From Blasia pusilla (lineage: Eukaryota), in NCBI GenBank assembly GCA_050084515.1, contig CM114271.1, forward strand, positions 2,728,001-2,792,000: 64,000 nt of DNA, written 5' to 3'. A model generated the notes under the pieces. The model saw only the letters and a list, made by a program, of their open reading frames with translations, was not told where the DNA came from and did not search any database. Of the stretch, positions 6,855 through 53,486 are shown in pieces. Position 1 is the stretch's first letter, and each line of letters begins with the position of its first letter. The translations under genes and the position numbers were made by a program.

Positions 6855-7776
6855 AATTTCATGTTGCTTAGTTCTATCCAAGCACTGCTTCTTAATCTGA
6901 TCCGTGCATGCAAATATTCTTATTTTATAAATACACATCACATCTTATATTCCATGGAGATAAAACATCATACAAAAAACCAACAGATCATATGACATTA
7001 GTTGGAATCTTATGAGGAGTCAGCCTTCGATCAACCAAATTGATATCCAAAAGTTTTCGAGTCAATTTTCCAACAATGTGCGTGATAGGAAATGTTGATG
7101 GTGTGTTATGGGCCATAGTAGCGATCTTTGTAGCATAATTTTTTGGGATGAGTTGGGATCTTGACATATGACAAGACCAACCAATGAAGAATGAGGGTCA
7201 GATCGTGGAGGACTATGTTGTCTAAGAGTTTCCGATTGGCATGACACAATATGCAGATTGGAGGCTAGTGATATGCATATGTGAGGTGTTGCAACACATA
7301 GTGGGGATCAACACATTTGCCATAAATGGAGTGAGGTCTTCATTCTAGAGAGTGATGAGACTAATGATAGATGTGAAGTGGGACCATTGATGTTGGCATC
7401 CTTCGTCATATCTTTTGTAGAAGAACGATGCGTATCCGCGTGTCACTTTGGTGGAGACCAAAGGTTGAGCATAGTAGGTTGAGAATGACTTACTGAGGAA
7501 TAGGGTACCGTATAAGTGTAGATTTCCCCTTGGTTTGGGCTCATTTAGAGCCTATTTCAAAAACTTGCTAATTCAAATAAATCACATATTTTGATGTAAT
7601 TGATATTTCATTCGTAGAAAGAGACCCTCTTTCCACTATTTCAAGTTTAGGGTTAAGGAGATGACATGCATGCATAGGTTTTTCAACGAGATAGCTTGGG
7701 GAGACAGAGGTTGGGAGTTCATTTTCTCTTTGCTTGAGACGGCGAAGGTATGGTGCATCTAGTAATCCCAATCTCT

Positions 7777-7982
<206 letters not shown>

Positions 7983-7999
7983 TGCTCTCTCCAACCCTA

Positions 8000-30079: not shown

Positions 30080-33000
30080 TGTGAGAAAACATAAAGTGAG
30101 GAAATCACTGAAACCTTTACAAAACTTAGCGATACAAAGTGGCCTAGTCCGTCCGTGCGCTCACACAAGAGCTTTGATGGAACCTAAACATAGAGATAAC
30201 TCGACATACGAGAATGCGCTACCGCTGCGGCTCCCGACTATTTGACTACTCGGGAAAACTAGGGTTTTTACCTATTTTTCTTCATTTCTATTAATAGAAA
30301 AAATAGGGTTAGATAAACCTAGTAACGCTACTCCTAAAACCACCTACGTCATATTACTATGATTCCTTCGACGTCTAAGTCGGAACCATCAATCTAGGCT
30401 TCTCCTCATACAAGGGGACCGATCAGATTAATGGTGCTTAGAGAAGTGGATGTTGAGAATCCAACACCCCCCCTCAATATCCACTCTCATGTGGACTACT
30501 GTCTTGGACCCATGCCAAGACCCCTCAGATGTCGGTGAAGCTGATCTCCACTCAAAGCTTTCATGAAGATGTCTGCACGGTTATCCTCTGTTGGACAATA
30601 GACTAACTTCAAAACCTCTATCTCGATCAATTCACGAACAAAGTGATAATGGATCTCTATGTGCTTCGTACGAGCATGAAACACATGATTATGTGCTATG
30701 GAAATGCAACTCTGATTGTCACACCACATTACAGTAGCATTTTCTGGTGCTTCTCCTATGTCCTCCAATATCCATCTCAACCATACTGTTTCACATGAAG
30801 CATAACAAGCCACCTTGTACTCTGCCTCGGTAGAAGAAAGAGCCACTATAGGTTGCTTCTTGCTGACCCATGACACCACACCTGATCCTACCAAGAAGCA
30901 ATAACCCGAAACTGATCTTCGAGAATCTGAATCTCCTGCCCAATCCAAGTCACAAAAACTTGTCATTTCCGTCCCTGCTCCATAGGTGATGGCGTACTCG
31001 ATAGTGTGCATTTGATGTACTTCAACACATGCATCCTTGCCTTCCAATGGTTCTCACGAGGCTTAGTTGAGAACCTACTCAACACTCCCACAGCGAAGCT
31101 AATGTGTGGTCTGGTGTTATACAAAAATATCAAACTGCCTACAAGCTTTATGTACAACTTTTCATCTACCAATGGTGAAACATCCTCCATTGAGAGTTTC
31201 AACTCTACCTCCATTGGCAAGACCACTACCTTACACTCGGTCATCCCAAATGCCTTCAAGATTTCTCTAGCATACTTCTGCTGAGAGAGAGAAATAGATT
31301 ATGACTGTTGCCAAATTTCGAGCCCTATAAAGTAGTGCAGAAGACCTAAATCTGACATTTCAAACTCAGATTTCAACACTCCCTTCATTTCCTCTATTTT
31401 CTTACTTTGGTCTCCTGTGATGATAAGATCATCCACATACAGGACTATGAATATATACATCCTATCTTCGCAAAACACATACAAATTTGCTTCTGACGGA
31501 CTCTTGATGAGATCCTTATCTCGAAAGAATGTATCTATTCGTTGATACCATGTCCTTGGGGCCTGCTTCAACCCATACAATGCTCGATGAAGTAAACAAA
31601 CTTTCTCTTCTGATCCGAGTGTCTCAAAACTTGGTGGTTGAGAAACATATACCTCCTCCTTGAGACTCCCATTCAGAAAGGCAGACTTCACATCGTATTG
31701 GTATACATGCCAACGTCTTGTTCCTGCAACCGCTAGAACAATTCAAATGGTTGTCATCCTTGCAGTAGGAGCAAAAGTCTCATAGTAGTCAAAACCTTCG
31801 ATTTGTGAGCATCCTTGTGCAACCAACCTCGCTTTGAATTTATCCAATGTACCGTCCGACTTGTAGTTGGTCTTGTACACCCACTTGGTGCGTATTATCT
31901 TCCTATCCTTTGGCTTTTCAACCAAAGTCCAAGTTTCATTTCTTTGAATAGCGTCCATCTCCATCTGCATGGCCTCTCTCCATTGAGGATGAGCAAGGGC
32001 CTCATCCAAGCATGATGGCTCTTCCACCTTCAAGACCTCTGTCATCAAGGCCATGTTGACGAGATGTGCGAAAGCTCTATTATGCTCCTCTAGTCTCTTG
32101 GATCTCCTTGGATGTGTAACAACTTCATCAGTGGCTGGTGGATCCTTACTATCCAAGAGTTGCTTTATCCACTTAGGGTATGACGACTGTAGTGGAAGAG
32201 CAAGTTGCTCTTTGTAATCATCATCAAATTCTTCTTCTTGATGATCTGGTGTAAACATTGGTGGTGTGCTCTGGTGGGTTATCTCTTCGTTTGATGATAA
32301 TGTGGACGGACCACTGATATTCGCCACTTGACAAGGCTGTTCCTGGAACACCACATCACGACTCACAAGCATCTTCTTTTCCTCAGGACACCAAAGGCGA
32401 TAAGATTTAGACTCATCACTGTATCCCATAAAGATGCACTTCCTGCTCTTGGACTCGAGCTTGGTCTTGGATGCTTCAGGAATATCTACAAAATACTCAT
32501 TACCAAAAGTCCTGAAATGTTGGATTGATAGTACCTTACCTGAGTATGATTGATGAGGAGTCATGCCTTGTACTGACTTGGTAGCACTTCTATTTAGAAT
32601 GTATACGGCAATATTAACAGCTCCAGCCCAAAATCCTTCTGTCAAACCTTTTGCTTTCATCACACATCTTGCCATCTCCACCATTGTACGGTTTCGACGC
32701 TCAACAACTCCATTTTGTTGTGGTGTATGTGCTGTGGTTAATTGTCGCTTGATTCCATGCTCCCCCAAATATTTGTTGAATTCTGTTGATAAGAATTCTC
32801 CTCCTTGATCGGTGCAAAGCTTTTGTACCTTCTTTCCTGTATCATTCTCAACCAGCTTGTGCCATACTTTAAATTTTCCAAAAGCACTTGCCTTATCACG
32901 AAGGAAATACACGCACATCTTCCTACTATAATCGTCGACAACTAAAAAGAAGTAGGAAGAACCACCTAATGCCACTGTTCTCATTTTACCACAGAGATCA

Positions 33001-34992
33001 GCATGTATCAACTCTAGAGGAGCCTTTGCTATATTGCTGGACTCTTGTGGAAATGGTTGTCGGTGTTGCTTGCCCATCATACAAGCTTCAAAAGTATCCG
33101 ACACTCCAATAATTGTTGGTAAATCAGCAACCATGCCAGATTTCTGCATCTGACTTAGTAAGGGAAAGCTTATGTGACCAAATCTTTCATGCCACAACTT
33201 ACTGCTACTAAGATCTCTACCTACACTTGTCGTGAAAGCATACAACTCGTAGATATTTCCACGTCGTATACCTTCACCCACTACTTTCCCATTGGCATCC
33301 TCAATGACTGCTCTAGTTTTCTTGAAACGAACTTCTAGGTCACGATCACATAATACTGCCACTGAAATCAAATTTCGCTTCAACTAAAAGTGCACAAGGT
33401 ACATTAGTTAACTTCTTTTCATCTCCTTTTTGTGAGACTAAAGAAATTGTGCTTTTCCCTTCTACAGGGCAATTTGCATTATTCCCAACAGTAACAACCA
33501 TGGGATCCTGTAGAGGCTGTAAGGAGCTATACCAATCCTTATGATTGGTCATATGCCTAGATGCTCCACTATTGAGCACACATGCATCTTCACTCTTTGA
33601 CTTAGTGGAATATTCTGTGTATGTGCAAAACTCTTTTATTGCTACCCAAACATCTACTTCTTGTTCTCCTAGTTCTACAGAATTTCCAAACTCCTTCTTA
33701 GGTCTTAAACAACGTTCTTCTCATCCTGACTCCTCTTTCTACAATCTTTGATAAGATGACCTAGCTTACCACAATAAAAGCATTTGAAGGCTTTTCTTGG
33801 AAATTTCTTCTTGACATTTGAATTGTAATCATGATTTCTACCTCTCTGTACGTTGGCAATAAATGCTGCATCATTTCCCTCTCTTGCTTTGAAGCGCATT
33901 TCCTCTTCTACTAACATCGCACTAAATTGTTCAAAAGTAAGCGGCGTGGGTCTTACTTGAGTATTCAGTGCAGTGACCAAACTGTCATACCTTGGAGGCA
34001 AAATCCTTATGCACTGACGAGCCAAATCTTCGTTAGACTTTGAAATTCCTACACACGCCATATGATCTTGAAGATTCTTGAACCTTATCAAAAATTGCTC
34101 CGCGCTTTCTCCTTCTGAAAATTTCTCAGACGTAAGCTGATTCTCCAGATTCTGAATCCGAGTCTCATTCCTCGTTTCATACTGATTCTTCAAAATATTC
34201 CACGCCTCAACAACAGTGGTTGTATGTTGAATGAGAGTCATGACAGAATCAGTTACATTCGTGACAATCGCATATAGAGCATCGGCATTTCTGCGTCTCC
34301 ATGCCAACAATACAATAGGATCGATATCCCCAAATGAAGATATCCCTTGTGGCCGTTTCCCAAATCTCAAATGATTCGAGGACAGTTCTCATTTTGAACT
34401 TCCACAACGTATAGTTAGATCCTTCTAACTTCCCTTCACCCAGCGGAGGAGGGCGAGCATGAACTGACGAAGAAGTAGCCATCTCTCAAGATTTTGTGCA
34501 AACACACTAGATCGCCAGATACAAAATATTGGAAAACCTATTGCTCTGATACCATGTGAGATAACAGAAAGTGACAAAATCAGTGAAATCTTTACAAAAC
34601 TTAGAGATACATAGCGGCCTAGTTCGTCCGTGCGCTCACAGAAGAGCTTCGATGGAACCTGAACATGGAGATAACTCGACATACGAGAATGCGCTACCGC
34701 TGCGGCTCCTGACTAGTTGACTCCTCGGGAAAACTAGGGTTTTACCTATTTTTCTTCGTTTCTATTAATAGAAATTTTTTTGCATCTAACCCTATATTGC
34801 ATCAGGGTGCGGGGCACCGTGATGCAACATAGGGTTAGATAAACATAGTAACGTTACTCCTAAAACCACCTACGTCATATTACTATGATTCCTTCGACGT
34901 CTAAGTCGGAACCATCAATCTAGGCTTCTTCTCATACAAGGGGGCCGATCAGATTAATGGTGCTTAGAGAAGTGGATGTTGAGAATCCAACA
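30080..34992 (-). mobile_element. Full-length Ty1/copia retrotransposon (4913 bp), coding region disrupted
   Basis: LTRs 34555-34992 and 30080-30466 (TG..CA), 5-bp TSD GGTTT on both sides, PBS TGGTATCAGAGC at 34543-34554, PPT at 30467-30476. Domains: gag with CFYCGKLGHLIKDC, protease (LNSGASRHM), integrase (TPQQNGVVERRNRT), RT (LYVDDLII), RNase H (DWAGD...SSTEAEY...KHIEI). Several frameshifts and stops. Confidence 0.97.
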
Positions 34993-35720: not shown

Positions 35721-36407
35721 ATGGTAAAATTGAAGTAAAAGATGCAATAGCTATATGATGGACATACAAATGATTAGTCGACACTTGTGCAATGTCCATG
35801 CGTCTACTAATCCACTGTTAATTTGAAAAGGGGTGTCCACTATCCATACAATGTATTGATATCCACTACTAAATTATTTCGTGCAAAACACGAGATAACC
35901 TATAATAATGAGAGATAAATGAAATCCATGACTAATGGATTAACTAATCCTAATAAAATTATGAATGGACGTTTCACAATTATTTCTATTTCTACGCAGG
36001 TATTCTATATAGGACATGAGGTGTTTGAAAGAATTTATATTATTATTGGAAAATACCTCTATGCACTAGGCAGAAAAAAATGTTTCACATCTTAAGAACA
36101 ACAAGAGAATATTTTGAATTTGTGTGCAATATCATTAATTCCTTCATTTCACAAATTATATATTGATTAAAGTTCTTCAAATATTTTTTATTTCTCGTGC
36201 ATTTCGAATACTTACTAGTATAAATTATTATTGGAGAATATTTTCTTCATTTGTAAACATATTTGGTTGACATTCGACAACCAAACAACAAAATAATATA
36301 GGGAATAATATATGATTTTATAATTCCCACGAGTATATAATATAGGGAATAATATATGATTTTATAATTCTCACGAGTATATAATAATTTGTAACTTGGC
36401 CCCCTCC

Positions 36408-36439
36408 TTAGGGTTTAGGTCCTTCTCACTTAGGGTTTT
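36408..36439 (-). promoter_or_regulatory. Two telo-boxes (AAACCCTAA) upstream of NOP16
   Basis: TTAGGGTTT at ~36408 and ~36430 on +. Telo-boxes are established promoter/5'UTR elements of plant translation and ribosome-biogenesis genes. Confidence 0.55.
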
Positions 36440-36479
36440 GCATCAACTCTTCACCAAAGAGATCTCCTTCGGCCGCAGC

Positions 36480-36985
36480 GAAAGCTGTAGGAGTTGTTGG
36501 AGCGAGAGGTGCAGGAGTTGTGTGCGCGAAGGATGCAAGAGCAGTTGCACGAATCGTGGGAGCTGCAGGAGTTGTTGGAGCGAGAGGTGCTGGAATTGTT
36601 TGTGCGAAAGGGGCAGGAGGAGTAGTTGTGGGAGCGAGAGGTGGTGGAATTGTTTGTGCGAAAGGTGCAGGAGGAGTAGTTGTGGGAGCGAGAGGCGCAG
36701 GAGTTGTCGGAGAGAGAGCTGCTGGAAGTGTTTGTGCGAAAGGTGCAGGAGGAGTAGTTGTGGGAGCGAGAGGCGCAGGAATTGTTGGAGCGAGAGCTAC
36801 TGGAATTGTTTGTGCGAAAGGTGCAGGAGGAGGAGTTGTGGGAGCGAGAGGCGCAGGAATTGTTGGAGCGATAGGTGCAAGACTTTTTGGAGCGAGACGT
36901 TCAAGGAGTTTTGGAGCGAGAGGTGCAGGAGTGGTTGGACGAGAGGTGCAGGAATTGTGGGAGCGAGAGGCGAAGGAGTTACTGA
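36480..36985. repeat. Purine-rich minisatellite of 24/27-nt units (GGTGCAGGA[GGA]GT(T/A)GTTG(T)GGAGCGAGA)
   Basis: About 20 imperfect units with a higher-order pattern, lying between the telo-boxes and the NOP16 ATG. Confidence 0.9.
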
Positions 36986-37045
36986 AGGCGTCCCTGGACA
37001 GACGACGGAGAGAGAGGAAGGGGAGGGAGATCGATTCGAGCGAGG

Positions 37046-38305
<1,260 letters not shown>

Positions 38306-45755: not shown

Positions 45756-48700
45756 TCAACTCACACTCTGAATGTATGTAGTCAAAGCATGTAAGTCAAC
45801 TGAATCAAGTATATATATTCTATCTTGTACCCCTGATTTCATTGTCAAGTTTACATTAGAAATCACCATTTCAATATCAATCCATTGCACATCTGTTGCA
45901 TCATAAGTGAACAAGGTTTTGTTGTTACCATGGCCGGAAGACTTGTACCAATTACACATAATACGACAAATGCTTCCCTTTTGTCTAGGAAGAGGTACAC
46001 GCTTGTCCAACAAGTCCAAGGCCCTACGACGTCTTGACCAATGTGAACTATTCTTTTGAATCATAAACACAATACGCCCCAACAAATACTCCTTTTTTGC
46101 AACTCCTGCCTCCATTGCAAGTTGTGTCTCTTTTCCCTTTTTTTTTTTTTTTTTTACTTTGTTGATCTTGTGGAAGGGCCAACGTCTGCCGTAAATTCAA
46201 ACAAAACTGCGATATCACTAACAACATCAACCAAACAAGTTGGACAATTAGGATCACGTTCCTTTCCCTTGCTAGTAGTGTAATATATCTTTTGGTCTAT
46301 TTGAGTAAGCTTGTCCTTTGACATGAAAGTAGTGTAAGACAACTGACTTACAAGGGTAGATTTATAGATAATCTTGCTCTCATAAGTTACAGTTGGCACT
46401 ACTGCATGGAGAATCGCCACATGAGTCAGTTCTGCTTGAACAGATGCAAACACATGCCTTACTTCATGTCCTAATATCTCCATCTCAATGGATTTCGGGT
46501 CAATGTCGACATCTATCTCTTCACCATCTATTATGAAAGGCACACTGATATCACAACTTTCCTCTATAACTCAAGAATCAATCTGATTCAAATCTTCCTC
46601 ACGGTCCTCAAACTCCAAAAACTCCCGAGTTGGCTGCTCATATGTTGGAGACCCTATTGAGGATTGGTGATCTTGATGTTCTTCGACATCATCACATGAC
46701 ACTACTTCCCTTATTGAATCTGAATCAGGCCATGTCTCGACCTCCACATCCCAAGGATGCACCCACCACCTTCTTTTTGCAATTGGCAAGGAACTCCTTG
46801 GAGATATGTTCAACAACTGGAAAAGATCTTTTGCTGCGTTCAACCCTTCTTTAAGAGTATCAACAACCAACTCATTAGTCCCAACCAATGAATAATCAAA
46901 TAGATTTGGAACTTGGTCTCCCTCACCAAGAGGATGCAATTTTTCCCAAACATGATCTGGAAGAATGGACATAGAGTACTCCCACCCTTCCCACCCTACT
47001 TTGTACCTTGGAAAAGAACCATTCATACCAGTATAATCTTCCATCATTAATTTCCTACGACGAGCATCACCATCACTAGCATGTCCCAATAGAGGACCAA
47101 TATCTGCTCTGCAATATTCATCCCACATGGATTTCAGCTGCACCCAATGCTCCCTCACTCAGTCTGCTTTGAATTGATTACAAGTTGCGGTGGCACAAAG
47201 AGCTAATTTTGGCATTTTCTCATGCAAAGGATTCACAATTACTACTCTGGCATATATACCTTTGGCATATTTCTCAAAAGTACTCACAATTTTATCATAC
47301 CCTTCATTACCTTCCCCATCAAGTACTTCCAAGCCAAAAGAGCATGTGTGTTCATTTGAGGGACCACAAAAACCGATCAGCGTATCATATTTAGCCTCCC
47401 ATCACAACATGCAACAATATCAAGTTAGAACACACGCCCAATAAACAATAATAGACATGAAAGATAAATATTCAAAGTAATATGACAAACATGATATTGC
47501 CTCTATATATATATATATATATATGAATGAAGGCCAACTATCTCGAGAGATTCAAACGCACCTTGGCCTTTCTTTTATCCTTGTTTCATCCCCAACAAAC
47601 ATAATAGGTAAGTCTCCCTCGATTCCAAGTAGTTTTTTTGATGCAAGTAGTACTCGAGAGACCTCTTGGAATATCTCTTTTCGCAACCTAGCTCTAAAGG
47701 GTGATAGTTTTACTCTATCACGTTTCAAGATCTTTAGACCTGGCCCTCCCAGAAAGCAGTGGGCAACTTGTCGACCACCAAACTGGGACATGGCTTGAGA
47801 AAAGGTTTTGGTTCTCTTACTATAACGATAACCCTTTCCCAATCTATGCAAATTCTTAGCCACATCTTTCAGGAAATCCCACAACCCCTCCTTACCACCA
47901 AATGCCCCATCCCTATGCCCGTTTACTATGTTCCTAAGAAATAGTCTTAAATCTTTCCTATCTGCAGCTATTCCTAACATGTCTTCAGGCTTCTTTCTCC
48001 TAATACTCAAGGCAAAATTTTCTGTGACTGTTGTGCCAAAATCCAACGTTATCTCCTAAATTGAGTGTTCAACTTTCCCATGTGCTCCCTCAACTCTGTC
48101 TTGGTGAAGTACTTCATGGCCATCCCTCTCTGAGTTGTCTTGCCTCCTCTATGCACTAAAGCTTCTGCTTCCCTGTGCACCCGACCACGAAAATCATCCT
48201 CTCGCTTGATGGAGTCACAATGACTACAAGTGAGGTTCTCAAATCCTCCCCTGTTACTGGACAATCTACAGCAAAGCTTGTGCCTAAAACAACCTTGTAT
48301 ACATACAATTGACTTACTAATTGGTTTGAACAGTGTGCTGAAGTGGTAAGCTCTAAGTCCCAAATAGTTCCTCTTGTCTGATCATCTAGTATGGCCTTCA
48401 CATCCATCAACTCTCGTCTCCATTGGACGTTTGATCCCATGAGCCCCAACAAAGCAAACTTAGTCCAAGATCAATGGAGGAAGCAAACCCACCTTTTCTT
48501 GAACTGCTTCCTTCTTTGAAGCCGTTAGGGTTAAAGAATTTGGTAATAGAATTATGAGATGGAAATAAATCCCTAGGATCTGGCTTATTTGGTCTTCCCT
48601 TCTTCCCATACCTCAACCCAAGTTGGGCAGTGACCTCTCTAGAGTCAAGAGCATCCAAGTGATCACGACTAACCAAGTGTTGTCGTAGATTATGCTCCAA

Positions 48701-49590
48701 ATTGGCCTTTCTTGGGCACATGTCTGTGTGCAACTTGCCACACATTATACATTGTACCTTGAATAGGTATGACCTCTATGCAAACTGCGTATCAGTGATA
48801 GATGGTGTCACAGAGAACACTATTGCCTCACCCCCAACCTCTGCATTCATTTTCTCAACTATTCCTAAACATGTGGCAATCTGATGTTCATGATCCCATA
48901 GAGATTTTTGTATAATGTCGTTGGGAGAAATCAATGAACTAGACAGACCCCTATCTCTTACAAAAGTTCTCCTCGTGCTTTGGGTTGTTGAGATGTTTAG
49001 TCTTGGAATTGCTAAAACAATTTGCAATTGATTTCAAAACCTGGGAATTAGCTGCATTCCCATATGTTTCTTGACATTATAAGCACTCTAGGTGCCCTCA
49101 GACATCTTGCCCCTCATCCCAAGTCCCTACTCTCCACTTATGCTCATTGTATCCTTGTCGCTTTACCCAATCTTTCAGCTTTCTCCACTCCTCATTCCAA
49201 CTCTTTGCTGCTACCTCAGACATAAGGCATGACTCAAATGAACCCGTGACCGGCGATGTATTAACTACTTGCTCTTGGGTTGTGGCTTCTCTATGTGATT
49301 GAGACCCAAAAATTGTGTCCTCTATAATAGATATAGTGGCAGCAGATGAATGAGAGGACACAATTGAACCCCCCCTCCCTAAGTACATCAAGAGGCTTGT
49401 TGTACAATCACAAAAACCCTCCCTTCAAGTTCACTAATCTCAATGAGGTTCTCAACAGGACGTCTAACTCTACCAGGAAGCCTATCATCCCAAAAATAAA
49501 ATTTGAAGTGAACCGCCCTAGCACATCTAATGCGGAAGTTGGCACAATTTGAGTCTGTCCTTCTTTGAAGGACAACACTCAAATTGGCAA
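45756..49590 (-). mobile_element. Decayed DNA-transposon transposase pseudogene (two C2H2 fingers, Cys-rich region, P-element-like DDE core, internally deleted)
   Basis: Stop/frameshift-broken minus-strand frames give ECL*CQET...KHLNNPKH; QCIMCGK...NLRQHLVSRDH; CRL...LTCSHCDSI; MFVGDETRIKERPR | intron ~47403-47561 | WEAKYDTLIGFCG...YARVVIVNPLHEKMPKL...TCNQF...GPLLGHASDGDARRRKLM. Termini were not found. Confidence 0.65.
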
Positions 49591-50296
49591 ATCATCCTTC
49601 CCTTTTGCCATGATAATTTTCTTCATTGTCTCTCTTTAATTAACTCCCTAAACGGAGAATTGATGGATCGATCGGGAGTTTTCTCAGCTGTAGCGCGAAT
49701 GAGATGGTTATGGCCGAAGTACCGAGTGCGTTTAGGGTGCGCGTACCGAGTGCGCTGTGTTTCGATAATGTTGGGTCACTTTGGTGAGGCAAACGCGCAG
49801 CTTTGCGAAGAAAACGTCATTCGAGAATTGGGATCCGTATCACTCGGAGGAGACAGGAAAATGAGTGATCCCATGCGCTTGGGCTGATTCTCAGGAGATG
49901 GCTGCGGAATGTTTTAGCGCACATAAGCACTCCTTGCGCTGAGTTTCGATTTCTTTGGTCACGATAGGGCGTGAGGAAAGTGCTGAAGGGTTTCCAACAA
50001 AACGCCATTGGAGAGATGTGATCCGCATCACTCGGAGTGATCGCACATCCCACGCGCTAGGGCTGATTCTTAGGAGATGGCGGAAGAATGTCGAAGCTCA
50101 CATGACTCGGGGCATGACATGAGGGCTCCTTGCGCTTTTTATTTTATTTTACTGACTGTACGGCAGGCGCGTAAGGGTTTTCAAGATGAGGGCATTCAAG
50201 AGATCGGAGTGCACGACATGAAATGTGTGATTCCACGCGCTCGGGTCAGTTCTCACGAGATGGTTGAAGAATGTTGAGGCTGTTTGTGAGAATGTC

Positions 50297-52311
50297 ATGA
50301 GTTCAGACATGGGTAGAAATGCGGAATCCCCGTGCGGACGGTCCACTGCAATGGAGGCGCTCCCACCTCTCACTGCTGTGGGGCGAGAAGCCTTCTTTTC
50401 TGTCTCGAGAAAGACCGAATCCGCCTCTCGAAGATCTGCCCCTCTGGAGGTGGCAACTCTTGCGGCTGTAGGGCGAGAAGCGCAACTCTCAGTCCCAAGG
50501 AAGATTGGATCCCCCTGTCGAAGATGGATTCCAGGGGAGGCGCCCAATATCCGTACAGTGGGGCGAGAAGGTCAATTCCCAACCCCGACAAAGGCTGAAG
50601 AATCTCCCGTTGGGAAATCTTACCTCGTGGAGACTCCTGCTCTTACTGCAATGGGGCGAGAAATGCAACTCCCAACAGCACCAACATGGTCCTCGCCCCC
50701 ACGCAGAGGCCAAGCAATCAGCTGTAGAGATCAAGGATCCCGAGAGAGGAGACAAAGAGTCGGCGGCGTCAGAATCACGGAAACAAGTAGCCATAGTCAA
50801 ACATCCGAGGAAATCCCAGTGACAGGGTTTCTGATCGAAGGAACTCCGACTTCAGAATTCCAACAATGCAATCCATGGATCTTACACTTTTCCAGGGATC
50901 TAGTGAAGTCTTCTTCATCGTTCGATGAGCAGTTCCGGGACCAGTTGCGAACGACGAGGCCATCGTACAAGCTCGGAAAACTCATGGGCCCTTTGGTGGA
51001 TCTGGGAACCTACACGAAGCTCTCCAACTGCAGTGTTCACGACATCCTGAAGTTGATTCATCAGAAGCTACAAACTGTGAAGGTGCACCGGAAGTCCTGT
51101 GAGGATCTCTTTGGTCAACTCAGACACATAGGTGAGACTTGCAAACTCCTGCACTTAATGCGAACTACTCCAATTTCTCCAGACCAATCGCCTCTTTTTG
51201 CAGCATCTCCGACATGAAGTACCGAGACTTTTTCACTTCACATCTCAAACACAAATATCCCCATTCCTCAGTTCTCTCTCTTTTGAACATGAATTTTTTT
51301 TCTATATCTGTGCTACATCCATCACAAGTTTTGGGCTTGTGATGGATGTAAAGGGCATATGTCGAACTCAAACATGAGGAAAGATTTCGAGTAACCATTT
51401 CCTTTGTCTGAATGGAGACGATGTGATCAATGCAACCGATTGAGAGTGTCAAATTCTGGTGATAGTAATACACCCGTGCTCATTTCATGCTTCTATGGTG
51501 GTGTAGTTGGTAGTTCCATAGATTTTCTTGCTGCAGCTTGACCTTGAACTCACTTTCTCGGATTTCGAGTCATTTGAACTCAACAGGTGATGTGCTTTCA
51601 CCATTGTTCAAGGCCTCAGAAACTGGCAACACTTCTCAAGGTGTGCGGAGACTGGTGGTAGTGGTCAAGGAGACCTTGGCTGATGCATACGTACTAGTAA
51701 AGAGCTGTGAGAGCAGGAAACCATTGTGTTCCAGCCTCCTCAACATTCCTGCCAAAATCATGGCATTGGAAGGGGAGATTCAGAGAATGATTCCAGTAAT
51801 TCGTGCTGCCATTTCCCAACATAACTCTCAGCAGGACATGCTAGGTAACCATAGCTGCAACATGGACAGATTTGCATCTGAAAATGGGACTGATGACGTT
51901 TCAAGTTCTCAAACTGAAAGGAGCTCCGCAGCTCCTTCACTACAATCAATTGGAATGAAGGGTACTCGATTGAAATCCGCAGTTTCGGACAATCCCAACC
52001 ACTTCTCTCAGGACTCTGGGTCAACTCTGGGCATGCCTTCCAGGCAGATCCCATGGCACCTGGACATTCATACACTAACAATGCTCAAGAAACAATATCA
52101 GCATTACATCTGCAGGGCTTGTCAAAAGGTTGGCGAAGGGTGTGTCTTCAGTTGTGACCAGTGCAACTATGACGTGCACCCTGGCTGTGTCGAGCTGAAT
52201 GAGGCAATACAGCGGATGGAGGAGATCAGAATCACCAAGCTTTCGATGGGGGATGAATCAGTGGAATTCGAGAAAGATCTGACTAAACTTTCTTGTGACT
52301 TAATGAAGTGA
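50297..52311 (+). CDS. Protein with N-terminal ~30-aa repeats, MCAfunc/MLKL-like four-helix bundle and C-terminal DC1 (C1-like) zinc finger, 519 aa
   Basis: Exons 50297-51131 and 51587-52311 (G|GTGAG...CAACAG|GT, phase 1) are open throughout. The splice restores LIHQKLQTVKVHRKSCEDLFGQLRHIG|DVLSPL...ETLADAYVLVKSC...EGEIQRMI. The C-terminus is HTLTM...YICRACQKVGEGCVFSCDQCNYDVHPGC. The start codon is uncertain (50297, 50309 or 50984). Confidence 0.8.
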
Positions 52312-53486
52312 CGAATTCCCTCTTCTCTCTGGTGGCCAGTGTGGTGAAGAAATCTACAAAAGATTCATATCCGTGGGATATAAATCTTTGCATCCCAAGA
52401 TGTATATCCCGTGGATGTCTTACCCAAAGTTTCCAACCCAGAGAGTAGAGAGATACAACACCTCAGGAACACATTTCCAATACCCAACTCACGTTATACT
52501 GAAATGTCACATAGAATGAGTAGTACGACAAAATCCAGAGAAAATGATACAAAAGAGGATCCAAACCATGGATAAAATAGGTAGATTTCAAAAAATGCAT
52601 ATATACAAAGGAGAATCCAGAAAGCCAACCAGATCCAAGCTCTTAACCATCGTAAGGGGGACAAAAAAAAAAACTCCCCTTCAAAAGAGAAGGCATAAGT
52701 TCTATCCACTGCCCACTTCGCTTTAAGACAATTCTTTCCAAGTACTGTGTTAATGAAACCTACCAGGATACGGTCCTGACTCAATTCTCAACACTGCTGA
52801 AACTTCACATATCTAGGCAGGCAGCTTCACAACAACTCGGTGTCAATTGTCGAGTGTCTGTCCAAAGCCGTTCATCTTCTGGAGTATCGGTGATGTAAAT
52901 TTCGAACATTCCTTTGAGTTCACCTTCAATCTCGTCCTAGTTTATCTTAACGAAGCCCTATCCACAAACGTTACAATGCTCCCACGACTACTTGTTTTGT
53001 ACGTGCCCCTAGATATCCACGTTACAGCAGATCATGACTGGGACTTCATGGGAATGCCATCCCAATTCACCTCACTCTTTCGTTCACATTCAATGCAAGA
53101 TTTGGACCGCTTATGCCTCCTGAGCAGACACTGTTCATACTAGAAATCGGAGCAAGTAACATGGTAACTATTGGTAAACGCGTCTCATAGCCAAACTTCA
53201 CGTCGAAGGAACGCTGCCGCTCACATGTAAAAAACCAATCAATGCCAAGCACAGAATCTCTCTCAAGTTTAAGAAAGGTTGCTCAAAAGAGCAGTGTTGC
53301 CCTCGCCAACCATTGTGTATATACATCCAAGAAAGGGAATGATTAAGCAGACCCAGAGGACATGGAATTCTGTATCCCCAGATGGAAGTCTTTTAACTTA
53401 GCTCTTAGGTTTGGAATGCGGTCGTATATGTACTGTACATGTTTTTCGTGTCGACTGTTGTGCATGTGATAATTTTATCTGATGTT

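What the first reader, a model, noticed from the sequence alone, without database searches (positions are those of the whole stretch)
50984..52311. MCAfunc/MLKL-type four-helix bundle fused to a DC1 zinc finger: candidate new sensor-executor protein
Seen: splicing 51131 to 51587 joins two otherwise anonymous ORFs into LVDLGTYTKLSNCSVHDILKLIHQKLQTVKVHRKSCEDLFGQLRHIGDVLSPL...KETLADAYVLVKSC...NIPAKIMALEGEIQRMIPVI. A Ser-rich linker and one H-x-L...CxxC...CxxC...HxxC finger follow. Knowledge: the first block follows the register of the MCA1/MCA2 N-terminal domain as I recall it (LI.....T...HKK.C......L..IG..L..L; L..SY.LV.SC; EI.R). That fold is shared with MLKL/HeLo-like membrane-permeabilising domains. 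Partners I know are PLAC8 (MCA), kinases/pseudokinases and U-box/ARM; I do not know of a characterised fusion to a lone DC1 finger. The position matching the MCA1 N-terminal Asp needed for Ca2+ uptake appears to be Ser here. Inference: a channel or cell-death executor whose regulatory input is a DC1 domain (lipid, redox or effector sensing).
Basis: partly seen in the sequence, partly recalled or inferred. Interest (0 to 1): 0.8.

Follow-up and report, generated by a model that had tools for sequence, protein, structure and literature searches.

The report
Liverwort helix-bundle protein with DC1 finger
A real, weakly expressed liverwort gene joins a helical bundle, resembling those of plant calcium-channel and cell-death proteins, to one zinc finger; the same arrangement exists, unstudied, in Marchantia.

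Summary
The GT..AG intron 51132-51586 is used in RNA, and exon 2 carries a complete single DC1 finger: Pfam C1_2 scores 28.3 bits against a cut-off of 26, and all 8 Cys/His ligand columns are present. Orthologues in Marchantia polymorpha (Mp1g03450), M. paleacea and Riccia fluitans align with the open frame upstream. The protein therefore has about 519 residues and starts at 50297, with a 190-residue basic, repeat-bearing tail.

The helical domain is probably a divergent relative of the MCAfunc/MLKL_N class. MCAfunc is the best helical Pfam match in 3 of 3 orthologues, at E 6.4e-5 to 2.8e-3, but always below the cut-off of 35 bits. A language-model search places it among MCAfunc, RPW8 and MLKL_N clusters. 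One low-confidence AlphaFold model has MLKL N-domains as its top three structural matches. A second model gives only generic bundles.

No PLAC8, kinase or transmembrane segment is present. An MCAfunc plus C1_2 protein in M. polymorpha was listed in a 2021 survey (PMC8049495). Function is inferred, not shown.

The parts
49670..52500 (+). Approximate transcribed span of the gene
   Evidence: In the stranded RNA runs X8 and X9, cover with the first mate on the minus strand begins in bin 49670-49803 and fades by about 52480. The neighbouring minus-strand PCMT gene shows the opposite orientation from 52618 on, which calibrates the strand: this RNA is on the + strand. Depth is low (1-15) and the ends are approximate.
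49670..50296 (+). Long 5' leader with three ~180-nt direct repeats (49868-50286) and 20 upstream ATGs
   Evidence: Repeats: families D1, D4 and D5. Upstream ATGs and their short ORFs. Transcription. Whether this stretch belongs to the same molecules as the coding sequence is not shown.
50297..51131 (+). Coding exon 1 (278 codons plus 1 base). The likely start is Met 50297, or Met 50309.
Evidence: Open frame. Translation P0099. It aligns with the N-termini of P0003 and P0004.
50297..50866 (+). Basic, probably disordered N-terminal tail (aa 1-190). It has four ~30-aa repeats (DNA 50367-50680), each with an (A/T)(V/M)GRE motif, and four Ser-Pro sites followed by basic residues.
   Evidence: DNA repeats spaced 90, 90 and 93 nt: D2 and D3. 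Motifs, Ser-Pro sites and pI 9.6. The same motif occurs in the orthologues. The equivalent part of the P0003 model has pLDDT below 35. No Pfam family and no atlas neighbour at 0.8 or more.
50870..50983 (+). Conserved block before the bundle (aa 192-229; starts NPW(I/V)LHF)
Evidence: Alignments.
51035..51131 (+). Helix 1 (51035-51076) and the first part of helix 2 of the four-helix bundle
   Evidence: Helix limits were carried over from the P0003 AlphaFold model through a pairwise alignment. Both models place the helices at the same positions.
51132..51586 (+). Intron, 455 nt, GT..AG, phase 1, inside helix 2
   Evidence: Sequence. Spliced reads and one spliced contig. The intron is also covered by unspliced reads at depth 1-6 in X8 and X9.
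51587..52311 (+). Coding exon 2, with stop TGA at 52309-52311
   Evidence: Matches P0003 at E 1.8e-55 and P0004 at E 5.3e-49.
51587..51837 (+). Rest of helix 2 (to 51609), helix 3 (51637-51711) and helix 4 (51730-51837) of the bundle
   Evidence: The Pfam MCAfunc and MLKL_N sub-threshold matches of the orthologues cover the equivalent residues.
51838..52047 (+). Acidic Ser/Thr-rich linker (about 70 aa)
   Evidence: pI 4.96. Only 38% identical to Marchantia, against 58-61% in the folded parts. pLDDT is below 40 in the model.
52048..52191 (+). Single DC1 (C1_2) zinc finger: H-x3-H ... CxxC ... CxxC-x4-HxxC
   Evidence: Pfam C1_2 scores 28.3 bits against 26, at P0002 residues 157-202, which is 52054-52191. 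All 8 conserved Cys/His columns are present.
52180..52308 (+). Family-specific C-terminal amphipathic helix (52180-52248) and tail, with a conserved Cys four residues before the last
   Evidence: Helix 486-508 in the P0003 model, mapped. Conserved in all four proteins. C-terminal Cys.

Best explanation
This is an expressed two-exon gene of a liverwort-like plant genome. It is the orthologue of Marchantia polymorpha Mp1g03450 and encodes a soluble protein of about 519 residues with five parts:
(1) a basic, disordered N-terminal tail with four 30-residue repeats and Ser-Pro-x-basic sites;
(2) a short conserved block;
(3) a basic four-helix bundle that is a divergent relative of the plant MCAfunc / MLKL_N / RPW8 (HeLo-like) class;
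(4) an acidic Ser-rich linker;
(5) one complete DC1 zinc finger, followed by a conserved amphipathic helix and a near-terminal Cys.

Shown: the anatomy, the splicing, the orthology and the DC1 identity.

Inferred, most likely mechanism: it is a peripheral membrane signalling protein. The basic bundle would bind anionic membrane lipids and self-associate, as other members of this class do. The DC1 finger with its C-terminal helix (and possibly a lipidated Cys) would target or restrain the bundle. The N-terminal tail would be a phosphorylation-controlled input. Whether it goes on to permeabilise membranes is open.
For: Gene and splicing: junction reads in X9 and a spliced contig in X2.

Orthology: P0003 at E 1.8e-55 with 52% identity, and P0004 at E 5.3e-49 with 46% identity. 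Both cover query residues 3-234 and 6-228. A third orthologue, P0100, was found. The upstream frame aligns with their N-termini.

Pattern of constraint: identity to Marchantia is 61% in the block plus bundle and 58% in the DC1 plus tail, against 38% in the tail and the linker.

DC1: above the Pfam cut-off, with 8 of 8 ligand columns present.

Bundle class:
- MCAfunc is the best helical Pfam hit in 3 of 3 orthologues (E 6.4e-5, 2.8e-3, 9.7e-4). MLKL_N follows in 2 of 3, and DUF7792 in 2 of 3.
- The atlas feature search of P0003 residues 232-400 gives MCAfunc clusters at 0.93 (186 of 256 features) and 0.92, then RPW8 at 0.92 and MLKL_N at 0.90. Eight of the ten best hits with a family share a family or clan.

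Not a membrane-spanning protein: the highest 19-residue hydropathy mean is 1.32, and the bundle has pI 9.5.

Literature: MLKL bundles are annotated as MCAfunc or Cbl-N in InterPro (bioRxiv 10.64898/2026.08.07.743466, passages).
Against: - Every MCAfunc and MLKL_N score is below Pfam's curated cut-off: 23.1, 17.8 and 19.3 bits against 35, and 17.3 and 15.5 against 27.
- The window's own spliced protein was never scored whole. Its two halves give no helical-family hit.
- A profile of the bundle found no MLKL or other relative in the PDB sequences. The only 2 matches were chance-level, at E 0.13 and 0.38.
- Both AlphaFold models are poor. Mean pLDDT is 37.2, with 50-71 in the bundle, and 53.0.
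- Foldseek gave 0 matches at E<=0.001.
- The domain-only model matched only generic bundles (ApoE, TorS, talin). No MLKL, RPW8 or CC chain is among its 50 listed rows.
- The three orthologues are not independent tests.
- Nothing here bears on lipid binding, oligomerisation, localisation or phosphorylation.
- RNA cover of exon 2 is thin (mean depth at most 2.4 beyond 51680), and the intron is covered about as deeply as exon 2.
Confidence: 0.55

Rival explanations
1. The bundle is a latent pore-forming or Ca2+-conducting executor, like MLKL, RPW8/CC-R or the MCA N-domain. The DC1 finger is the sensor (lipid, redox, effector) that releases it.
For: The class resemblance of the bundle. The bundle is basic, as in lipid-binding 4HBs. 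A separate folded C-terminal module is joined by a flexible linker, a layout like bundle-brace-regulator in MLKL (the MLKL comparison is from established knowledge and abstracts listed).
Against: There is no functional evidence of any kind. The same bundle class also heads U-box/ARM proteins that are not known as executors (PMC8049495, passages). There is no transmembrane segment. It is unknown whether plant DC1 fingers bind lipids at all (PMC10707348, introduction).
Confidence: 0.2
2. The helical domain is a generic or lineage-specific four-helix bundle, not homologous to MCAfunc/MLKL. The protein is then simply a liverwort DC1-finger adaptor or regulator with a helical interaction domain.
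For: All family scores are sub-threshold. The PDB profile search was blank. Foldseek found nothing at E<=0.001. The second model matches only generic bundles. Helical proteins give middling Z and atlas scores by chance, according to the tools' own notes.
Against: Three different methods point to the same small set of related plant families, out of 24,736 Pfam models, 7.7 million atlas clusters and 48,161 chains. The Pfam E-value of 6.4e-5 already allows for the size of the library. A published MCAfunc HMM search reported a C1_2-partnered protein in M. polymorpha (PMC8049495).
Confidence: 0.2
3. The locus is mostly a non-productive transcript. It has a long leader full of upstream ATGs and frequent intron retention, so little or no protein is made in this species.
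For: There are 20 upstream ATGs between about 49670 and 50297. Intron depth is similar to exon-2 depth. Cover falls from 5' to 3', and X8 has no junction read.
Against: The frame is intact over 519 codons, with no stop or frameshift relative to the orthologues. The folded parts are more conserved than the linkers. Spliced reads exist. Depth is too low to measure splicing efficiency.
Confidence: 0.05

Closest known systems
Mp1g03450 (Marchantia polymorpha), Mapa_010027 (M. paleacea), R1flu_017341 (Riccia fluitans): deposited hypothetical / 'Phorbol-ester/DAG-type domain-containing' proteins
   Same: Same five-part architecture from end to end. Identity is 46-52% over exon 2 and 57-64% in the block plus bundle. 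They share the repeat motif, the conserved block, the DC1 finger, the C-terminal helix and the near-terminal Cys.
   Different: The number and spacing of the N-terminal repeats differ: four regular 30-aa copies here, fewer recognisable copies in the others. None of them is characterised. No paper in the library names any of the four locus tags.
MCA1/MCA2 (MID1-complementing activity) and Pfam MCAfunc PF19584
   Same: MCAfunc is the best helical Pfam match of the orthologues. The match covers profile positions 1-96, 2-106 and 1-103 of 143. The atlas neighbours are MCAfunc clusters.
   Different: Scores are below the cut-off of 35 bits. There is no PLAC8 domain, no EF-hand-like or coiled-coil middle region was detected, and there is no hydrophobic segment. 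It is therefore not an MCA channel protein. The last third of the MCAfunc profile is unmatched.
Plant and animal MLKL (N-terminal four-helix bundle, Pfam MLKL_N PF22215; PDB 4btf, 6ux8, 6ka4)
   Different: No kinase or pseudokinase domain and no recognisable brace. A DC1 finger takes the place of the regulatory domain. The match is not reproduced with the second model or by a sequence profile against the PDB.
RPW8 / CC-R domains of helper NLRs (NRG1.1, PDB 7l7v)
   Different: No Pfam RPW8 hit at E<=1. No NB-ARC or LRR.
Plant DC1 (Divergent C1, CHP) proteins such as VLG, ULI3, CaDC1; nucleoredoxin-type Trx+DC1 proteins
   Same: The same finger with all 8 ligand positions. A single C-terminal DC1 after another domain also occurs in a thioredoxin-fold protein, P0087.
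   Different: Typical DC1 proteins carry several tandem fingers: 2-17 matched stretches in most hits. This protein has one finger, placed after a helical bundle.

Membership tests
Pfam MCAfunc (PF19584) | Whole-protein score at or above the gathering cut-off (35 bits) | tested here: not met
   The orthologues P0003, P0004 and P0100 score 23.1, 17.8 and 19.3 bits (E 6.4e-5, 2.8e-3, 9.7e-4). The window's exon halves give no hit at E<=10.
Pfam MCAfunc (PF19584) | Match over the whole 143-position profile | tested here: not met
   Only profile positions 1-96, 2-106 and 1-103 are matched.
MCA channel proteins (MCA1/MCA2 type) | C-terminal PLAC8 domain | tested here: not met
   No PLAC8 hit in the window halves or in the three orthologues.
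MCA channel proteins (MCA1/MCA2 type) | Asp21-equivalent needed for Ca2+ uptake in AtMCA | not testable with these tools
The position lies N-terminal of the Pfam match, and no MCA sequence was available from a tool. MpMCA lacks this residue (PMC11663713, passage).
MLKL family | Kinase or pseudokinase domain after the bundle | tested here: not met
   No Pkinase-type hit.
MLKL_N (PF22215) / HeLo-like four-helix-bundle fold | Pfam score at or above 27 bits | tested here: not met
   17.3 bits (P0003) and 15.5 bits (P0100). No hit for P0004 at E<=1.
MLKL_N (PF22215) / HeLo-like four-helix-bundle fold | Structural superposition on MLKL, AtMLKL3 or CC-R bundles, standing clear of other bundles | tested here: inconclusive
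DC1 / Pfam C1_2 (PF03107) | Score at or above the gathering cut-off (26 bits) | tested here: met
   The window's exon 2 scores 28.3 bits, E 2.2e-6. The orthologues score 20.4-22.2 bits, below the cut-off.
DC1 / Pfam C1_2 (PF03107) | All conserved Cys/His zinc-ligand positions present | tested here: met
   All 8 columns that carry Cys or His in more than 80% of the 46 aligned DC1 segments are occupied in the window. Zinc binding itself was not tested.
RPW8 (PF05659) | Pfam match | tested here: not met
   No hit at E<=1. The only link is an atlas neighbour at 0.92.

The most novel reading that the evidence does not exclude
A liverwort-restricted member of the MLKL/RPW8/MCA bundle class that needs neither a kinase nor an NLR. 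Its membrane-acting four-helix bundle would be held in check by a single DC1 zinc finger and C-terminal helix. It would be released by a lipid, redox or zinc signal, or by proline-directed phosphorylation of the repeat-bearing N-terminal tail. This would be the first DC1-gated executor or Ca2+-flux module, and it could be studied genetically in Marchantia.
Probability: 0.15. Interest if true: 0.7.

Novelty: new variant of a known kind. Interest (0 to 1): 0.4.

Why it matters
Bundles of the MLKL/RPW8/MCA class carry out cell death and Ca2+ entry in plant immunity and mechanosensing. How they are controlled outside NLR and kinase contexts is poorly known. A version coupled to one DC1 finger, a domain whose ligand in plants is still unknown (PMC10707348), would give a simple two-module system for studying both domains.

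The model liverwort Marchantia polymorpha has an orthologue, Mp1g03450, so the question can be tested by knock-out and inducible expression.

The value is tempered in three ways. The architecture was already listed in a 2021 survey. The family was found in only three liverwort species plus this window. The class assignment is still sub-threshold.

Tried and rejected
- Word-seeded homologue searches. P0002 at near lengths gave 0 of 218 candidates at E<=0.01. The bundle profile A2 at 44-296 aa gave 0 of 2088 candidates at E<=10. A2 at 297-2000 aa gave only the three orthologues among 8000 scored candidates. No MCAfunc protein was retrieved, so no profile-profile comparison with true MCAfunc sequences could be made.
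- A profile of the bundle against PDB sequences gave only two chance-level matches.
- The whole genome is not held, so paralogues and the MCA gene of this organism could not be sought.
- The look-up of sequencing runs listed no holder on record as RNA. The RNA evidence comes from laying the raw-read runs X8 and X9.
- Complex prediction of the bundle (P0003 232-400) against the DC1 plus tail (436-524) with 2 Zn gave 'no answer': score 0.50 against controls up to 0.41. This is no evidence either way.
- The domain-only AlphaFold job did not improve on the full-length one.
- An atlas search of the N-terminal 240 residues scored 0.78 at best, which is chance level.
- Tandem Repeats Finder found nothing in 49000-53000. 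The repeats were found by the repeat finder instead.
- Earlier findings of this scan: three look-ups, nothing to show.
- Literature: no paper names Mp1g03450 or the other locus tags. No listed paper combines 'DC1 domain' with HeLo, RPW8, MLKL or four-helix bundle.
- I rejected the idea of a transmembrane MCA-like helix.
Full report
**What is there**

An open frame ends at a GT donor: the exon's last base is 51131 and GT is at 51132-51133. An AG acceptor lies at 51585-51586. A second open frame runs from 51587 to a TGA at 52309-52311.

Four public runs that hold this DNA were laid on 49000-53000. One joint was reported: 51129/51585, 'GT..AG (cut +2)', skipping 455 nt. That is exactly 51131/51587.
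- It is carried by 7 reads with 4 start places in the stranded RNA run X9, and by one contig of X2.
- X8 and X1 show no junction, so it is seen in 2 of the 4 runs laid.
- The first mates lie on the minus strand. The neighbouring minus-strand PCMT gene gives the opposite orientation from 52618 on. The RNA is therefore on the + strand.
- The intron is also covered by unspliced reads, at depth 1-6.
- Exon 2 is thinly covered, with mean depth at most 2.4 beyond 51680. Splicing efficiency and full-length molecules cannot be judged from this.

**The gene model must be extended**

A full HMMER scan of 1.84 billion representative proteins with the exon-2 translation gave 93 hits at E<=0.001.
- Two hits cover almost the whole query: P0003 (524 aa, E 1.8e-55, 52% identity) and P0004 (508 aa, E 5.3e-49, 46% identity).
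- The other 91 match only the finger part. Their best stretch starts at query residue 103 or later in 90 of them. The one exception, P0074, is a DC1 protein by Pfam.
- P0003 is Marchantia polymorpha Mp1g03450 and P0004 is Riccia fluitans R1flu_017341. Both are deposited as hypothetical or 'Phorbol-ester/DAG-type domain-containing' proteins.
- A third orthologue, Marchantia paleacea Mapa_010027 (P0100), came from a profile search.

In these proteins the part that matches exon 2 starts near residue 280-290.

The window's frame is open upstream to 50231. Its translation from Met 50297 (P0099) aligns with those N-termini. The alignment includes a strongly conserved block that starts NPW(I/V)LHF, just upstream of 50984.

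The coding sequence is therefore most likely 50297-51131 plus 51587-52311, which is 1560 nt and 519 aa. RNA cover starts near 49670. That leaves a leader of about 630 nt with three ~180-nt repeats and 20 upstream ATGs.

**The finger**

Pfam C1_2 (the DC1 family) scores 28.3 bits against a cut-off of 26 on the window's exon 2.

I aligned this segment with 45 DC1 segments taken from the hits; five of them are the orthologues or members of their cluster. Eight columns hold Cys or His in more than 80% of the rows (H, H, CxxC, CxxC, HxxC). The window has all eight.

There is only one finger. Most DC1 proteins have several. A conserved amphipathic helix follows the finger.

**The helical domain**

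Evidence that it belongs to the MCAfunc / MLKL_N / RPW8 class:
- MCAfunc is the best helical Pfam match in 3 of 3 full-length orthologues (E 6.4e-5, 2.8e-3, 9.7e-4). MLKL_N follows in 2 of 3, and DUF7792 in 2 of 3.
- A language-model feature search of P0003 residues 232-400 gives MCAfunc clusters at 0.93 and 0.92, RPW8 at 0.92 and MLKL_N at 0.90. Eight of the ten best hits with a family share a family or clan.
- InterPro labels MLKL bundles as MCAfunc or Cbl-N (bioRxiv 10.64898/2026.08.07.743466, passages). These hits therefore belong together.

Evidence against:
- All Pfam scores are below the curated cut-offs.
- The window's two exon halves give no helical hit.
- A profile of the bundle finds no PDB relative.
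- The model is poor: mean pLDDT 37, and 50-71 in the bundle.
- Foldseek finds nothing at E<=0.001. Its weak rows do include four MLKL executioner-domain entries and NRG1.1 CC-R among the first eleven.
- A domain-only model (pLDDT 53) matches only generic bundles such as ApoE, TorS and talin.

My reading is that this is a divergent relative of the class, at odds of roughly 3 to 1. It is not a demonstrated member of Pfam MCAfunc.

**What it is not**

- There is no PLAC8 domain and no kinase.
- There is no hydrophobic segment. The highest 19-residue hydropathy mean is 1.32; the usual threshold of about 1.6 is recalled, not from a call.
- It is therefore neither an MCA channel protein nor an MLKL.

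**Other anatomy**

- The N-terminal 190 residues are basic (pI 9.6) and rich in Ser, Thr, Pro, Gly and Arg.
- They hold four ~30-residue repeats, each with an (A/T)(V/M)GRE motif, and four Ser-Pro sites followed by basic residues. The same motifs recur in the orthologues.
- The bundle is basic (pI 9.5) and the linker acidic (pI 5.0).
- Identity to Marchantia is 61% in the block plus bundle and 58% in the finger plus tail, against 38% in the tail and the linker. This fits two constrained folded modules joined by flexible parts.
- All four proteins have a Cys near the C-terminus. It is followed by four residues in three of them and by three (C-A-V-V) in Riccia. This is a possible lipidation site. 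That reading is from recalled knowledge of CaaX-type motifs and was not tested.

**Mechanism**

Only the anatomy, splicing and orthology are shown. By analogy with the class, I take the basic bundle to bind anionic membranes and to self-associate. The finger, its helix and possibly a lipidated Cys would target or restrain it. The tail would be a phospho-regulated input.

The same bundle class also heads U-box/ARM proteins (PMC8049495, passages). It is not known whether plant DC1 fingers bind lipids (PMC10707348, introduction).

The Asp21 remark could not be tested. It also has little weight, because MpMCA lacks that residue (PMC11663713, passage).

**Novelty**

The family was found only in three liverwort species plus this window, at the sensitivity. 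No paper in the library names the locus tags.

However, Nishii et al. 2021 (PMC8049495; I read passages only and did not see the supplements) state that some MCAfunc proteins have C1_2 as an alternative partner in M. polymorpha and maize. The architecture has therefore been listed, though never studied. Whether their Marchantia protein is Mp1g03450 would need their supplements.

I rate it a new, uncharacterised variant of a known kind, of moderate interest.

**Limits**

- The spliced protein of the window could not be handed to Pfam, AlphaFold or the large searches. All class evidence comes from the orthologues, which are 57-64% identical in the bundle region.
- No genome of the organism is held.
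- No true MCAfunc sequence could be fetched for a profile-profile comparison.

Noticed in passing
window 49868-50286: Three ~180-nt direct repeats (65-82% identical to the reference copy) lie in the transcribed leader upstream of the coding sequence. Together with 20 upstream ATGs, they suggest translational control, or a separate upstream transcript.
   Followed up: partly
window 52581-53765, minus strand: A convergent neighbour. An exon of a protein-L-isoaspartate O-methyltransferase gene lies at 53490-53765 (Pfam PCMT, E 2e-30). Much stronger minus-strand RNA cover starts about 52600; one X1 contig has depth 183. The 3' ends of the two genes lie within roughly 100-300 nt of each other.
   Followed up: partly
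window 52296-52308 and the C-termini of P0003, P0004 and P0100: All four proteins end with a Cys followed by three or four residues. Riccia ends C-A-V-V, a CaaX-like box. This may be a prenylation or acylation site that would anchor the protein to membranes.
   Followed up: no
window 30496-34388, minus strand: A Ty1/copia-type retrotransposon with gag-pre-integrase, integrase core, SH3-like and RVT_2 domains in long ORFs (for 31746-33383; neighbouring ORFs). A further integrase fragment lies at 453-875.
   Followed up: partly
window 62475-63443, minus strand: A long exon of a BAHD-type acyltransferase (Pfam Transferase family, E 3.6e-62).
   Followed up: partly
window 46157-48055, minus strand: Three consecutive long ORFs (138, 195 and 167 aa) just upstream of the gene have no Pfam match at E<=0.001. 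They may be exons of an unknown gene or of a mobile element.
   Followed up: no
window 36360-37207; 7568-7996; about 37500-37650: A Gly/Ala/Arg-rich tandem-repeat region is open in several frames on both strands. There are also long dinucleotide microsatellites, read as SLSL... and THTH... in the translations.
   Followed up: no
window 55001-55576, plus strand: An ORF with a weak zf-RVT match (E 5e-4, 21.1 bits, below the cut-off of 27.5). It is probably a remnant of a non-LTR retroelement.
   Followed up: partly
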